This document shows, in pieces, positions 827-11,532 of a stretch of 64,000 bases of DNA. The translations under genes were made by a program, and so were the position numbers. Under the pieces are notes generated by a model. That model saw only the letters and a list, made by a program, of their open reading frames with translations, did no database searches and had not been told where the DNA came from. Numbering within the stretch: the first letter of the stretch is position 1; the number at the start of each line of letters is the position of its first letter. This stretch comes from a virus, in the IMG/VR virus record IMGVR_UViG_3300032011_003203, positions 17,265 to 81,264 of that record; one strand, given 5' to 3'.

Positions 827-995
827 AGTAGCATTTGATTATCCTACTATTGAGGGTATGATTTATAAAGATACTATTATAGTATGTGAAGAATCAGAAT
901 TTAATAGTAGGGTACACGATGAAAAAGTAAAAGGTAAGATGGATACTGGTAAGATAGTATGGATACCCAAAAAGTTATTAGCGAGTGGAACATAA
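816..995 (+). CDS. Hypothetical protein
   Basis: Small ORF overlapping both neighbours; ATG at 816 preferred to TTG at 807. Confidence 0.55.
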   Translation: MRVKVAFDYPTIEGMIYKDTIIVCEESEFNSRVHDEKVKGKMDTGKIVWIPKKLLASGT

Positions 996-1554
996 AAATT
1001 TAAATAAAGTATTTGTACCATTTATAGAACTACTTAAATCTCACCACCTAATTACATTGCCGTGGATGAGAACACCATACTTTTATTTTGCTGGTGGGTG
1101 TATTCGAGATACATTTGGTAATAGTAATATAAATGATTTTGATTTATATGTAACGCAAGAATCAGATTTAGATAATCTAATCACTATATTAAAAGAACTT
1201 GGATTTGTAGAATTTTATAGAACTGAATTTAGTGCTAAGTATAGATTCTTAAATTCATATGTGGATATTAGTTTGATTAACTTTTACACTCCAGAAGATT
1301 TATTTAAGACCTATGAATATACTATTAATTGTGTAGCATTAGATTCGGATTATAATTTATATTATCATAAAAACTTTTTAAGTGATTTAGAAAAAAGAAC
1401 ATTGGTTAGAGTTGAGCACGAGAATGAATGGTTCAATTCAGATGAGGGTATCTTATCATTATCATACAGAGAAATGAAGTTTTTAAATCGTGGATATACT
1501 ATTGATGATAGTAAGATTGATAAATTAGATATGAAAAAAATTAATATAAAATAG
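985..1554 (+). CDS. Nucleotidyltransferase (tRNA nucleotidyltransferase/poly(A) polymerase head-domain-like)
   Basis: AGGCIRD..NDFDLY (GG.RD..DxD) signature and YTINCVA motif. Confidence 0.75.
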   Translation: MEHKNLNKVFVPFIELLKSHHLITLPWMRTPYFYFAGGCIRDTFGNSNINDFDLYVTQESDLDNLITILKELGFVEFYRTEFSAKYRFLNSYVDISLINFYTPEDLFKTYEYTINCVALDSDYNLYYHKNFLSDLEKRTLVRVEHENEWFNSDEGILSLSYREMKFLNRGYTIDDSKIDKLDMKKINIK

Positions 1555-1694: not shown

Positions 1695-2168
1695 ATGACT
1701 AAAGTTATCTTTAATAAAGGTATTCCTATCATCGATAGGGATAATTTCTTAACACCATTCGATAGATTATTCGACCAAATGGTATCACAACAATTTCCAG
1801 AAATTGAAAAACAAGTAGGGGTAAAACCATATCAAGGTACTGCATATCCAAAAGTAAATGTATATGAGTATGATGATAAGGTTGGTATCCTTGCAGAGAT
1901 TCCAGGTCTTGATAAAAAGGATTTATCAATAGATGTGGAAGAAGGTGTATTAACAATCGCTGGAAACAAACACGGACTGTTTGATGATAAGGGTGCAAAA
2001 GTAATTCGTAAAGAATTAAAACATTCTTCATTCTCAAGACAATTCGAATTGGGTGAATTACTAAATGGAGATAAAATAAAAGCAACATTTAAAGATGGAT
2101 TGCTTTCTATTGATATTCCTAAAGTAGAACCGAAGAAACCGAAAAAAACCGCTGTCAAAATTTCCTAA
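1695..2168 (+). CDS. Small heat-shock protein Hsp20 (alpha-crystallin domain)
   Basis: PKVNVYE, AEIPGLDK, FSRQFEL, ATFKDGLLSIDIPK motifs; AGGAG RBS. Confidence 0.93.
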   Translation: MTKVIFNKGIPIIDRDNFLTPFDRLFDQMVSQQFPEIEKQVGVKPYQGTAYPKVNVYEYDDKVGILAEIPGLDKKDLSIDVEEGVLTIAGNKHGLFDDKGAKVIRKELKHSSFSRQFELGELLNGDKIKATFKDGLLSIDIPKVEPKKPKKTAVKIS

Positions 2169-2358
2169 TATAATAGATGTAGGAAACGACAGGTATGTTG
2201 TTCTTGGAACGGCAAAGGTTGACTCTGGTTATTCTCCCGAAGAACTCAAGTCTCAGTATGGGTACGCCGATGCCGTTCTAAGGAACGGAGAAGTTTATTA
2301 TATCTGCTATAAAATAATAGAAGCAGAATTTGAAGAATTGAATCAAGAAACAGAATAG
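2152..2358 (+). CDS. Hypothetical 68-aa protein with putative CTG start (not in ORF track)
   Basis: Open frame (L)SKFPNIIDVGNDRYVVLGT...EFEELNQETE fills the gap between hsp20 and the structured RNA. Confidence 0.5.
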   Translation: MSKFPNIIDVGNDRYVVLGTAKVDSGYSPEELKSQYGYADAVLRNGEVYYICYKIIEAEFEELNQETE

Positions 2359-2359
2359 A

Positions 2360-2574
2360 GTCGTGATTTCTTGTTACCACTTCGGTGGGTTGTTGTTTTC
2401 GGATATGGAGTGAAAGGTTTGGATGAGCGACCAAACAGAAGTCCTAACTAAAAGGACATAGAGTAATATCAGTTAGGCTGGGTTGTAGACCAGAGGATAT
2501 TGCTTACCAGTAGTCTGGTACAAGTATCACTTTTGATATAGCAATTGTGAGAAGATATTGAAATAATTGACGAC
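2360..2574 (+). ncRNA. Unidentified multi-hairpin structured RNA (~215 nt)
   Basis: Ends pair (GTCGT/ACGAC). Internal hairpins CCAC-TTCG-GTGG, GTTTGG..CCAAAC, GTCCT..AGGAC, GAGTAATATC..GATATTGCTT, TACCAG..CTGGTA, TATCA..TGATA. GC-richer than flanks; strand inferred from the cUUCGg loop and G-U pairs. Confidence 0.6.
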
Positions 2575-2604
2575 ATACTACGCTAATTTGATACTTATTA
2601 CTAT

Positions 2605-3132
2605 ATGAATCTTAAACAGATTAAACAAAGAAAAGTAAGACAGAAACTTGCTTGGTTACAATCCGAATTAGAAGAAACAAAAATCATTTATAAAGATTGT
2701 ATAGAAAAGTTCAATACAGATTTCAGAAATTATCTGATGGGTAATGATGCACCAATTGAGGCTGCACCAAAAATAACCAAAGACCCACTTGATGAAATTC
2801 AATCTGATGTTGATGAGGATACATTTAAACAAGTGTATCGTAAGGTTGCAGGAAAGACACATCCAGATAAGGGTGGGGATTCAGATAAGTTTAAGGTAGC
2901 AAATGAGGCTAATAAAAATAAAGATTTTGGTAAGTTGTTAGATATGGCAGATGAATTAGGAGTTGAAGTTCCTATGGATGATAAGTTAAAATTTCAAATG
3001 GAACAACAAATAAAAGCAGTATCAGATAATATAACCAATATGAAATCCACGATGGCGTGGGTTTGGGTTCACATTGAACCAGATTCAAAAGATAATATGA
3101 AACAATATATTCTACAACAATTGAATATATAA
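2605..3132 (+). CDS. J-domain (DnaJ-like) protein
   Basis: FKQVYRKVAGKTHPDKGGDSDKFK with HPD motif. Confidence 0.8.
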   Translation: MNLKQIKQRKVRQKLAWLQSELEETKIIYKDCIEKFNTDFRNYLMGNDAPIEAAPKITKDPLDEIQSDVDEDTFKQVYRKVAGKTHPDKGGDSDKFKVANEANKNKDFGKLLDMADELGVEVPMDDKLKFQMEQQIKAVSDNITNMKSTMAWVWVHIEPDSKDNMKQYILQQLNI

Positions 3133-6160: not shown

Positions 6161-6433
6161 ATGAATAATCAAGAATTAATAGATTTGTTAGTAGAAAAAT
6201 TTGATGGTACAATTATCGATGATAATAATTGGGAACACTATTCCATCAAAGGTAAGAAGTATGATATTATGTTTGACCCATCACGAATCGAATGGAGTTG
6301 TGATTGCCCAGCATTTATATATCGTAGAAAATTTAAAAAGAAATATTGTAAACATATTATTGAGATACAGAATAAGAAATTACAACAACGAGTGGCACAA
6401 GCAGAAGGCCGTGCAGGTGCCAGAGTTGGTTAA
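6161..6433 (+). CDS. SWIM zinc-finger protein
   Basis: WSCDCPAF...YCKHI (CxC...CxH). Confidence 0.8.
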   Translation: MNNQELIDLLVEKFDGTIIDDNNWEHYSIKGKKYDIMFDPSRIEWSCDCPAFIYRRKFKKKYCKHIIEIQNKKLQQRVAQAEGRAGARVG

Positions 6434-6484
6434 TGGGGTGGATTGCAAATCCATTATTCGCAGGTTCGAATCCTGTCCTGCACT
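6411..6484 (+). tRNA. tRNA-Cys(GCA), CCA not encoded
   Basis: Acceptor GTGCAGG/CCTGCAC, anticodon arm GTGGA-TTGCAAA-TCCAT, T arm GCAGG-TTCGAAT-CCTGT, U73 discriminator typical of tRNA-Cys. Confidence 0.93.
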
Positions 6485-6494
6485 CAAAATTTAA

Positions 6495-11180: not shown

Positions 11181-11528
11181 GGGGCTGCTTGGTATCGACA
11201 GGTGCTGTTTCGTATTTGAGTGCAACGGAGTTTGAGCAAGACTCGCTACAAAAGGTTCATCTTGATTAATTGGCAATACTGCTAATTACGCTTACGCTTA
11301 ATGTGTAAGGCTCGTTCCAAGACTCAGATATTGGGTAACGGGTTCATAAATCTGAAAAGAACTCACTTTAGTTAGAGGGAAGTTAGTGATTAAAGAAACT
11401 ACCAGTTTTCAAGAGCTGTATATAACTTGACAAAGGTTGATGATAACTAAAATTTGGAATCATCTAAAGTTGTGAACGACTTGATATGATAGGTAGACTG
11501 GACGGGGGTTCGACTCCCCCCAGCTCCA
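11181..11528 (+). ncRNA. ssrA: tmRNA with tag (A)GNTANYAYA
   Basis: 5' GGGGCTG..TCGACAG; 3' GACGGGGGTTCGACTCCCCCCAGCTCCA with G3.U70 Ala identity pair; tag ORF 11272-11301; ~350 nt. Confidence 0.93.
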
Positions 11529-11532
11529 CAAT

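What the first reader, a model, noticed from the sequence alone, without database searches (positions are those of the whole stretch)
2360..2574. Unidentified ~215-nt multibranch structured RNA
Seen: a GC-richer non-coding island closed by long-range pairings (GTCGT 2360/ACGAC 2570; GTTGTTGT/ATAGCAAT). It holds at least six helices, including a cUUCGg tetraloop hairpin (2377-2388) and a compound arm (2461-2504). It is not a tRNA, tmRNA, 6S-like rod or recognisable riboswitch. The next gene has its own promoter, so a cis-leader role is unlikely. Inference: a candidate novel phage ncRNA.
Basis: partly seen in the sequence, partly recalled or inferred. Interest (0 to 1): 0.7.

Follow-up and report, generated by a model that had tools for sequence, protein, structure and literature searches.

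The report
New pseudoknotted phage RNA cassette
About 245 bases between two chaperone-type genes of an uncultured marine phage encode a real folded RNA with a pseudoknot; the fold is supported by compensatory changes, matches no catalogued RNA family, comes and goes as a self-contained cassette among related phages, and has no known job.

Summary
The flagged stretch is a genuine structured RNA on the + strand. It is somewhat longer than stated, at 2350-2602. A fixed 16- or 19-base word found about 48 distinct homologues in marine viral and metagenome contigs. On these, about 90% of cells in nine helices form pairs, against 26-54% for slid controls, and 23 pairs show compensatory double changes. 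The fold has four parts: a 5' stem with a large U-rich internal loop, a conserved hairpin, an H-type pseudoknot presenting an invariant GUUGUAGA loop, and a hairpin presenting an invariant UGAUAUAGCA loop. Its UUCG hairpin and compound arm are. Rfam 15 has no match, even at E<=10 or for the longer relatives. The nearest cultured phages and 185,579 prokaryote species genomes showed no copy.

The RNA is an accessory cassette. Five of 13 syntenic relatives lack it, and it sits before three different genes. Contigs from RNA libraries of three studies cover it, but they do not show its ends. My best reading, at about 45%, is a trans-acting, probably protein-binding ncRNA. A cis leader or insulator role is the main rival. 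A resemblance to a permuted RNase P core is only a long shot. The scan has earlier noted other uncatalogued pseudoknotted RNAs beside hsp20 in marine phages on other DNA. They share no sequence words with this one.

The parts
2350..2602 (+). Whole RNA element as matched end to end by covariance model R1. It is the only significant copy in the window and in the 81-kb record.
   Evidence: 277 bits, E 7.7e-61; the only significant hit in G000.
2341..2360 (+). 5' flank of the cassette: the last codons and stop of the upstream ORF (..N Q E T E *). Relatives that lack the RNA do not have these codons. In relatives the flank holds a -10-like CATAAT 8-11 nt before helix H1; the window has GAATAG.
   Evidence: ORFx ends ..EFEDIT*..EYEDV* or ..EFDEL* in RNA-less loci and ..EFEEL-NQET* in RNA-bearing loci. 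That this flank is a promoter is inference only.
2361..2402 (+). 5' domain. Helix H1 is TCGTGA 2361-2366 with TTTCGG 2397-2402. It encloses a large internal loop with two U-rich strands (2367-2376 and 2389-2396) and hairpin H2 (CCAC 2377-2380 / GTGG 2385-2388, UUCG loop).
   Evidence: The middle H1 pair is C-G in 31 sequences and G-C in 10. H2 pairs in 95.7% of cells, with 3 of 4 pairs showing double changes. Both loop strands stay U-rich in every subfamily although their sequence differs.
2417..2436 (+). Hairpin H3: GTTTGG 2417-2422 with CCAAAC 2431-2436. The loop ATGAGCGA is conserved (consensus RKNAGYGA). It is preceded by a conserved GAGTGARAGG.
   Evidence: About 98% of cells pair, with U-A changing to C-G at two positions in 3 sequences each. 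The L002 group has GUUAG/CUAAC instead.
2437..2448 (+). A-rich joiner AGAAGT, then the 5' strand of pseudoknot helix S1 (CCTAAC 2443-2448). Long-form relatives carry an extra domain of 85-150 nt inserted between AAAGT and CCTAAC.
   Evidence: helix 1: 98.9% paired. The L002 group has CCTAT(T)/(A)ATAGG, which gives 2 pairs with double changes. The insertions are seen.
2463..2503 (+). Pseudoknot arm. Helix P-D is GTAATATC 2463-2470 with GATATTGC 2496-2503. It encloses the S1 3' strand (GTTAGG 2472-2477) and hairpin H6 (CTGG 2478-2481 / CCAG 2490-2493) with the invariant loop GTTGTAGA 2482-2489. The 19-mer TAGGCTGGGTTGTAGACCA was the word used to find the metagenome homologues, so its constancy among them is built in.
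   Evidence: P-D: 5 of 7 pairs with double changes; RNAalifold finds P-D; word searches.
2505..2520 (+). Optional hairpin H7 (TACCAG-TAGT-CTGGTA). It is variable or absent in relatives.
   Evidence: This region could not be aligned across subfamilies.
2527..2550 (+). Hairpin P-E: TCAC 2527-2530 with GTGA 2547-2550. It presents the near-invariant loop word TGATATAGCA (2534-2543).
   Evidence: helix 4: all 7 pairs next to the loop show double changes. Stem sequences include GAUUUGA/UCAAGUC, AUAGAUU/AAUUUAU and UUCGGU/AUCGGA.
2549..2590 (+). Purine-rich tail (GAGAAGATATTGAAATAA; most subfamilies have GGAAGAAnnTGAAATAA) and a last weak hairpin P-F (AATTGACG 2565-2572 / CGCTAATT 2581-2588). The P-F stem differs between subfamilies (GACGG/CCGUC, CACG/CGUG, CGGC/GCCG).
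   Evidence: read by eye and not counted on an alignment. One search lists no canonical terminator here.
2591..2604 (+). ATACTTAT and the short spacer before the ATG of the J-domain gene. This belongs to the downstream gene's own upstream region, not to the inserted RNA.
   Evidence: RNA-less L110 has ..TAG ATACTTATTTAT ATG directly after ORFx.
2152..2358 (+). Context: a conserved small ORF (ORFx, about 68 codons) with no ATG, GTG or TTG in frame. It overlaps the end of hsp20 (1695-2168) in the +1 frame. The likely start is the invariant CTG at 2152-2154.
2605..3132 (+). Context: the downstream J-domain-like gene.
   Evidence: Pfam DnaJ, E 2.9e-5, 24.5 bits, below the curated cut-off of 27.8.

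Best explanation
2350-2602 is a self-contained accessory ncRNA cassette of a clade of uncultured marine myophages. By baseplate protein, the nearest cultured relatives are Microcystis phage Mel-JY01 and the Flavobacterium phage Immutovirus.

SHOWN
- The + strand folds into four parts: (i) a stem with a large two-sided U-rich internal loop capped by a hairpin, (ii) a conserved hairpin, (iii) an H-type pseudoknot (S1 crossing P-D) that displays a sequence-invariant small hairpin with loop GUUGUAGA, and (iv) a hairpin displaying UGAUAUAGCA. A purine-rich tail follows.
- The cassette is present or absent among close relatives.
- It stands in front of different genes in different relatives.

INFERRED
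- It is made early, either from a weak sigma70-like promoter carried in its own 5' flank or by processing of read-through transcripts.
- It acts in trans as a scaffold or decoy for a protein, through its invariant loops.
- A GUUGUAG-like loop occurs a second time in long-form relatives and twice in the divergent L101 variant. This is the pattern expected for repeated protein-binding sites.

The partner, and the benefit to the phage, are unknown.
For: - Structure and strand. More than 150 G-U cells in the supported helices would be A-C mismatches on the other strand.
- No known family.
- Single copy per genome.
- Accessory status: 8 of 13 syntenic loci have the RNA. L104, L107, L108, L109 and L110 gave no match, and in the four I read (L104, L107, L109, L110) ORFx is followed directly by the J-domain gene.
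- Different neighbours: upstream is ORFx or the J-domain gene. Downstream is the J-domain gene, the membrane-protein gene, or in L027 a gene starting MKCLKCK.
- Conservation exceeds that of the neighbouring genes. In L003, where the J-domain protein is 55% identical, the 5' block, the hairpin and the 19-base word are nearly unchanged.
- Stem bases of H6 never vary, which indicates sequence-specific recognition rather than mere pairing.
- Repeated GUUGUAG-type loops.
- Contigs of RNA libraries from three studies cover the locus at about 100% identity.
Against: - No discrete transcript, 5' end, 3' end or strand has been shown.
- The RNA-library contigs bridge into ORFx (2152-2446) and into the J-domain gene (2418-2734 and 2447-2689). 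This fits read-through mRNA or DNA carry-over.
- The window's own 5' flank has a poor -10 (GAATAG).
- No canonical intrinsic terminator is called at the 3' end.
- No partner protein is identified, and no co-occurring gene was tested.
- The RNA always ends a short, fixed distance before a start codon, which also fits a leader.
Confidence: 0.45

Rival explanations
1. Cis-acting leader or insulator. The RNA is the 5' untranslated region of whichever gene follows it. It controls that gene's transcription or translation, for example as a sensor in a chaperone-gene cluster. Alternatively it uncouples the gene from the upstream operon.
For: - The RNA always ends 15-45 nt before a start codon.
- It lies in an hsp20 / J-domain cluster.
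- RNA-library contigs run from the RNA into the next gene.
- Earlier notes of this scan read other hsp20-adjacent phage RNAs as leaders (unchecked).
Against: - Three unrelated downstream genes follow it.
- Relatives express the same J-domain gene without it.
- No helix with covariation sequesters the start region. The AATAA/TTATT and tail pairings are no better than chance.
- The most conserved parts are displayed loops far from the start codon.
Confidence: 0.25
2. A recombination cassette without a trans function. The element persists as a PeSL-like composite of terminator and promoter, which shuffles between hyperplastic regions of T4-like genomes. Its structure serves only termination and re-initiation.
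For: - Presence or absence, and two to three insertion contexts.
- A last hairpin overlaps a sigma70-like -35/-10 match.
- PeSLs are described as small composite terminator/promoter sequences that mediate indels in T4-like phages (PMC4122927, PMC2839356).
Against: - PeSLs are described as small. This element has 245-390 nt, nine helices and a pseudoknot.
- Two loops are invariant across hosts of the cassette.
- Purifying selection on displayed loops is not explained by termination.
Confidence: 0.12
3. A catalytic RNA, either a self-cleaving or trans-cleaving ribozyme. This includes a minimal, circularly permuted RNase P-like core.
For: - The joiner plus S1 reads GAAAGUCC..., paired with ...GGCU with one bulged U, flanked by A-rich joiners.
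- The order is hairpin, S1 5' strand, P-D 5' strand, S1 3' strand, capped hairpin, P-D 3' strand. This equals P3, P4, P2', P4', P1, P2 of RNase P read from a different starting point.
- The sequence basis is. The RNase P features are from established knowledge of the family and were not computed here.
Against: - No RNase P, intron or ribozyme model matches at E<=10.
- Short forms have only 14 nt between the two strands, leaving no room for P5, P15 or the specificity domain.
- The divergent variant L101 lacks the GAAAGUCC/GGCU helix altogether.
- An 8-base coincidence is not rare.
Confidence: 0.06
4. Not an RNA: a DNA-level element such as an origin or a protein-binding array, or a decayed gene.
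For: The minus strand also folds better than its shuffles (z -3.5).
Against: - Compensatory changes, with many G-U pairs that only work on the + strand.
- No conserved reading frame.
- No repeat array.
Confidence: 0.03

Closest known systems
Orphan complex-folded ncRNAs of phages and prophages (GOLLD, ROOL) and the T4 'species I/II' stable RNAs
   Same: They are phage-borne and stand-alone, with many helices and strong covariation. They are accessory in distribution and have no assigned biochemical function.
   Different: There is no sequence or model similarity. This RNA is much smaller (245-390 nt) than GOLLD or ROOL. It is not next to tRNA genes. It is built around a pseudoknot with two invariant displayed loops.
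manA and wcaG RNA motifs of marine phages (Rfam RF01745, RF01761; PMC2864571)
   Same: They are pseudoknotted RNAs carried by marine myophages, and they are sometimes free-standing.
   Different: Neither model matches the window or eight relatives at E<=10 or E<=5. The conserved words and the helix order differ.
RNase P RNA catalytic core (P2-P3-P4)
   Same: A long-range helix forms from GAAAGUCC-type and GGCU-type strands with a bulged U. The joiners are A-rich. The helix crosses a second helix to form a pseudoknot next to a hairpin.
   Different: The strand order fits only after circular permutation. There is no P5, P15, P18 or specificity domain, and no model match. The helix is missing in variant L101. 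The resemblance rests on recalled family features.
PeSL cassettes of T4-like phages (PMC2839356, PMC4122927)
   Same: The element is an indel-type cassette in a variable early region. It is bordered by a hairpin plus a promoter-like word, and it brings a stop codon for the upstream ORF.
   Different: PeSLs are short regulatory borders around protein genes. Here the cargo itself is a structured RNA.

Membership tests
Any Rfam 15 family (4227 models) | A match at the family's gathering score, or at least a suggestive E-value | tested here: not met
   only tmRNA 11181-11531 and a tRNA 6411-6484 in the window; the best hits in 2100-2700 have E 4.7 and 6.1; nothing on the RNA in eight relatives, long forms included.
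RNase P RNA | P4 helix built from the CR-I (GAAAGUCC) and CR-V (GGCU) strands, with a bulged U | tested here: inconclusive
   The words and a bulged U are present in most members. The helix only covaries in its distal part, in one subclade. The words are absent in L101.
RNase P RNA | Helix order P1-P2-P3-P4...P2'-P4'-P1', with P5/P15 and a specificity domain between the P4 strands | tested here: not met
   The order fits only if permuted. Only 14 nt separate the S1 5' strand from the P-D 5' strand in the window.
RNase P RNA | Cleaves pre-tRNA 5' leaders | not testable with these tools
   This needs an in vitro assay.
Group I intron | Interrupts a gene whose exons join into one frame, and has P4-P6 and a G-binding P7 | tested here: not met
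   The flanking ORFs are complete, and they are the same in RNA-less relatives. Short forms have no domain where P4-P6 would lie. There is no Intron_gpI match.
Riboswitch / RNA thermometer / other 5' leader | Constant association with one downstream gene or gene class | tested here: not met
   The downstream gene is the J-domain gene, the membrane-protein gene, or an MKCLKCK.. gene.
Riboswitch / RNA thermometer / other 5' leader | An expression platform: a terminator or a start-site-sequestering helix supported by covariation | tested here: inconclusive
   The last hairpin differs between subfamilies (read by eye) but is weak, and one search does not call it a terminator. The AATAA/TTATT pairing shows no covariation.
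PeSL-type mobile regulatory cassette | Presence/absence polymorphism between close relatives at the borders of a terminator-promoter composite | tested here: inconclusive
   The polymorphism is shown. The composite is only a 9-of-12 promoter match overlapping a weak hairpin.
tRNA / tmRNA | Cloverleaf or tRNA-like domain recognised by ARAGORN or Rfam | tested here: not met
   ARAGORN lists only tRNA-Cys 6411-6485. Rfam places the tmRNA at 11181-11531. Neither finds anything at 2350-2602.

The most novel reading that the evidence does not exclude
The pseudoknot core is a natural, circularly permuted and drastically reduced relative of the RNase P catalytic core. It has a GAAAGUCC/GGCU helix with a bulged U, A-rich joiners, and flanking P2- and P3-like helices. 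On this reading the RNA is either a phage ribozyme or a decoy that captures the host RNase P protein.
Probability: 0.04. Interest if true: 0.95.

Novelty: new variant of a known kind. Interest (0 to 1): 0.6.

Why it matters
Phage genomes are still read almost entirely as protein genes. This is a complex, pseudoknotted RNA with dozens of natural variants. It has strong covariation, modular insertions and two invariant displayed loops. It is kept or lost as a unit in abundant marine phages.

It is a well-defined new RNA family that could be submitted to Rfam. Its loops offer a handle for finding an unknown RNA-protein interaction in phage-host biology, such as takeover, anti-defence or chaperone control.

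With the other uncatalogued RNAs that this scan has noted beside hsp20 in marine phages, it suggests that early chaperone-gene regions are hot spots for RNA genes.

Tried and rejected
GTCGT/ACGAC and GTTGTTGT/ATAGCAAT are no better than shuffled columns.
- **My own long-range idea.** I tested whether the 5' U-rich strand (GAUUUCUU) pairs with the purine tail (GAGAAG, AAGGAAUC or GAAAAC). The duplex energies equal those of composition-preserving shuffles (mean z -0.09 over 37 sequences). An ENE-like triple-helix clamp was considered. I dropped it because the second U-rich strand cannot pair with the tail.
- **Antisense targets.** The complement of the GUUGUAGA loop occurs at chance frequency in the window (3 against 2.7 expected). 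There is no significant duplex with the phage tmRNA or tRNA-Cys.
- **Cultured relatives.** Model R1 gives only E>=0.07 hits, and those I checked (in immuto) lie inside annotated protein genes, in Flavobacterium phage immuto, Microcystis phage Mel-JY01 and a 484-kb uncultured phage.
- **Host origin.** A 22-base two-block pattern found only two stretches, in MAGs labelled Methylocystis and Streptomycetaceae, among one genome each of 185,579 prokaryote species. Model R1 matches neither, so I take them for chance.
- **Phage nucleotide database.** There is no similar DNA.
- **HDV-like and group I topologies.** I compared them by hand and rejected both: no P3/L3, no P4-P6.
- **Cas12a repeat.** The GUUGUAGA loop resembles the 3' end of Cas12a repeats. 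This is recalled from memory only. The complementary half of the repeat hairpin is absent, so I did not pursue it.
- **CM alignment A3.** It mis-places the 3' strand of H3 in long forms. I therefore counted helices on separate MAFFT alignments, A4 and A5.
- **Catalogue of viral structured RNAs (PMC10690425).** No supplementary files are held, so I could not check whether this RNA is among its 10,006 unnamed candidates.
- **RNA-library contigs.** They show presence only. Uncovered parts and depth were not interpreted.

Full report
**WHAT IS THERE**

The finding lies between a small conserved ORF (ORFx, ending at TAG 2356-2358) and a J-domain-like gene (ATG 2605). The surrounding cluster is thioredoxin, a nucleotidyltransferase, hsp20, ORFx, then the RNA, the J-domain gene, a small ORF, a membrane protein and phoH. 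The + strand has no ORF of 30 codons or more in 2360-2604.

Rfam 15 finds only a tmRNA and a tRNA elsewhere in the window. With permissive filters it finds nothing better than E 4.7 in 2100-2700. Taken alone the sequence folds only slightly better than shuffles (z -2.3), so the single-sequence observation is weak.

**HOMOLOGUES**

The neighbouring J-domain protein led to two related viral contigs. From these I read conserved blocks. A 16-base word from one block found 10 true homologues in IMG/VR, and a 19-base word found 63 stretches in metagenome contigs.

A covariance model built from 13 short forms matched 56 places in 55 sources end to end. It matched the window exactly once, at 2350-2602 with 277 bits, and gave no other significant match in the 81-kb record.

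There are about 48 distinct sequences, in two size classes:
- Short forms of 240-260 nt, which include the window.
- Long forms of 325-390 nt, with an extra domain of 85-150 nt inserted between AAAGU and CCUAAC.

**STRUCTURE**

I derived helices from compensatory differences between subfamilies. I then counted them on two MAFFT alignments that were not fitted to the structure.

On the 3' two thirds (45 sequences, 24 pairs):
- 90.1% of cells pair, against 31-44% when partners are slid.
- 14 pairs show changes on both sides.
- No shuffle of 500 reaches the covariation score.

On the 5' third (41 sequences, 16 pairs):
- 90.5% of cells pair, against 26-54% when partners are slid.
- 9 pairs show double changes.

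RNAalifold independently returns helix P-D.

The supported elements, with coordinates, are:
- **H1** 2361-2366/2397-2402. Its middle pair is C-G in 31 sequences and G-C in 10.
- **H2**, the UUCG hairpin, 2377-2388.
- **H3** 2417-2436, with a conserved 8-nt loop.
- **S1** CCUAAC 2443-2448 / GUUAGG 2472-2477.
- **P-D** 2463-2470/2496-2503.
- **H6** 2478-2493.
- **P-E** 2527-2550.
- **H7** (2505-2520) is a variable hairpin.
- **A last hairpin** (2565-2588) has stems that differ between subfamilies. I read it only by eye.

S1 crosses P-D, so the core is an H-type pseudoknot. Its support is near-invariance plus two compensated positions in the L002 subclade, which is probably one evolutionary event.

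The many G-U cells place the structure on the + strand.

A duplex between the 5' U-rich strand and the purine tail is no better than shuffles.

**WHAT IS INVARIANT**

- The word UAGGCUGGGUUGUAGACCA. This is the S1 3' strand plus H6 with its loop GUUGUAGA. It is constant in the set because it was the search word. The stem of H6 never covaries.
- The P-E loop word UGAUAUAGCA is nearly invariant, although it was not used for the search.
- Both strands of the large internal loop between H1 and H2 stay U-rich in every subfamily.
- The tail is purine-rich; most subfamilies have GGAAGAAnnUGAAAUAA.
- Long forms carry a second GUUGUAGA inside the inserted domain.

A divergent member found by synteny, L101 (54.8 bits), keeps the 5' domain, the P-E loop and the tail. 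Its pseudoknot is replaced by other helices whose loops read GUUGUG and UAUUGUAGGUG. The family is therefore modular, and a UUGUAG-type loop is its recurring displayed motif.

**DISTRIBUTION AND CONTEXT**

Of 13 syntenic loci fetched with the membrane protein, 8 carry the RNA. In four of the five others, ORFx is followed directly by the J-domain gene. L108 gave no match but I did not read it.

The inserted unit includes the last codons and the stop of whichever ORF lies upstream:
- ..NQET* after ORFx.
- ..DKENE* after either ORFx or the J-domain gene.
- ..KTKN* after the J-domain gene.

Downstream genes are the J-domain gene, the membrane-protein gene, or another gene in L027. The word ATACTTAT before the J-domain start is native to that gene, because RNA-less L110 has it too.

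The RNA is thus an accessory cassette that moves within this early region. This recalls the PeSL-bordered cassettes of T4-like phages (PMC4122927).

The nearest cultured phages by baseplate protein are Microcystis phage Mel-JY01 (46% identity) and Flavobacterium phage immuto (41%). They have no copy. A two-block pattern scan of one genome per prokaryote species gave only two stretches that model R1 does not match.

**EXPRESSION**

Contigs assembled from RNA libraries of three studies cover the locus at about 100% identity. Some bridge ORFx and the RNA (2152-2446), and some bridge the RNA and the J-domain gene (2418-2734 and 2447-2689). Contigs cannot show strand, ends or level, and DNA carry-over is possible. 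This is presence only.

Promoter-like words exist in the 5' flank: TTGAAG-18-CATAAT in L003 (17-18 in relatives), and TTAACA-18-TAAAAT in the other arrangement. The window's own -10 is poor, and no canonical terminator is called. Independent transcription is therefore inference.

**HOW IT MOST LIKELY WORKS**

Shown:
- A conserved, pseudoknotted + strand RNA.
- Invariant displayed loops.
- Accessory and mobile distribution.
- Independence from the identity of the next gene.

Inferred: a trans-acting RNA that binds a host or phage protein through the GUUGUAGA and UGAUAUAGCA loops, acting as a scaffold or decoy. I put this at about 0.45.

A cis leader or insulator role is the main rival (0.25), because the element always ends just before a start codon. 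A purely structural PeSL-like cassette (0.12), a ribozyme (0.06) and a DNA-level element (0.03) follow.

**COMPARISON WITH KNOWN FAMILIES**

No catalogued family matches. The joiner-plus-S1 helix resembles RNase P's P4, and the helix order fits a permuted P2-P3-P4 core. The defining features of RNase P are otherwise not met: there is no model match, no P5/P15 or specificity domain, and the helix is missing in L101. I keep this only as the most novel reading that is not excluded (about 0.04).

In kind, the RNA belongs with the orphan complex-folded phage ncRNAs (GOLLD, ROOL, manA/wcaG, T4 species I/II), but it is unrelated to them in sequence and architecture. Earlier notes of this scan describe other uncatalogued pseudoknotted RNAs beside hsp20 in marine phages on other DNA. 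A word search with this RNA finds none of them, so any link is untested.

**VERDICT**

This is a real, new RNA family with unknown function.

Noticed in passing
window 2152-2358 (+), overlapping the hsp20 end at 2166-2168: ORFx is a conserved small ORF (about 68 codons, ..VGNDRYVVLGTAKVDSGYSPEELK..) with many synonymous differences between relatives. It has no ATG, GTG or TTG in frame and lies in the +1 frame over the last codons of hsp20. More distant homologues start with ATG at the matching place (MPKFVEVGKDRY.., MKIISANDDRY..). In all 24 clade members read, the only start-like codon is an invariant CTG (2152-2154). The hsp20 Ser/Ala codon that supplies its C and T always ends in T. The likely explanations are CUG initiation or termination-coupled re-initiation. 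A +1 shift at the conserved UCC UAA is less likely.
   Followed up: partly
window 2264-2279 (+), inside ORFx: A perfect 6-bp hairpin, CCGTTC-TAAG-GAACGG, lies over the codons for (A/T)VLRNG. Relatives keep the pairing through wobble changes (CTGTTC..GAACGG, CTGTTC..GAATGG), including RNA-less loci. This may be coincidence of codons or a small structure within the coding region.
   Followed up: no
window 985-1554 (+): A 189-aa nucleotidyltransferase has a GG..RD...DxD head motif. It gives weak matches to the poly(A) polymerase / tRNA nucleotidyltransferase head domain (PHROG 1614 and 2244; Pfam PF01743, below cut-off). It is present between the small ORF and hsp20 in this phage but absent at that place in L002, L003 and L004.
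   Followed up: partly
L101:2309-2635 (IMGVR_UViG_3300017758_002682): A divergent variant of the RNA lacks the 16-base search word. It has the same 5' U-rich-loop domain, P-E loop and tail, but a different central domain with loops GTTGTG and TATTGTAGGTG. The family is therefore wider than the word-based search shows.
   Followed up: partly
window, whole length, + strand: Words within one mismatch of TGATATAGC, the P-E loop word, are about twice as frequent as in shuffles: 35 against 17.0, and no shuffle of 100 is as high. 28 of the 35 are on the + strand. This may be a codon-usage effect. It was not examined.
   Followed up: no
long-form relatives, e.g. L013:1433-1567, L003:2727-2822: Two types of inserted domain (about 96 nt and about 118-139 nt) lie between AAAGT and CCTAAC. 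Their helices differ compensatorily between subfamilies: CCCGAUGA/UCAUCGGG against UCUGAUGA/UCAUCAGA, and UCAC/GUGA against CUAC/GUAG against UCC/GGA. They contain a constant hairpin AGUUCC-loop-GGAACU. This was read by eye only.
   Followed up: partly
window 11181-11531 and 6411-6485: A phage-encoded tmRNA (Rfam 95 bits) and a tRNA-Cys(GCA). Neither shows significant complementarity to the RNA's loops.
   Followed up: partly
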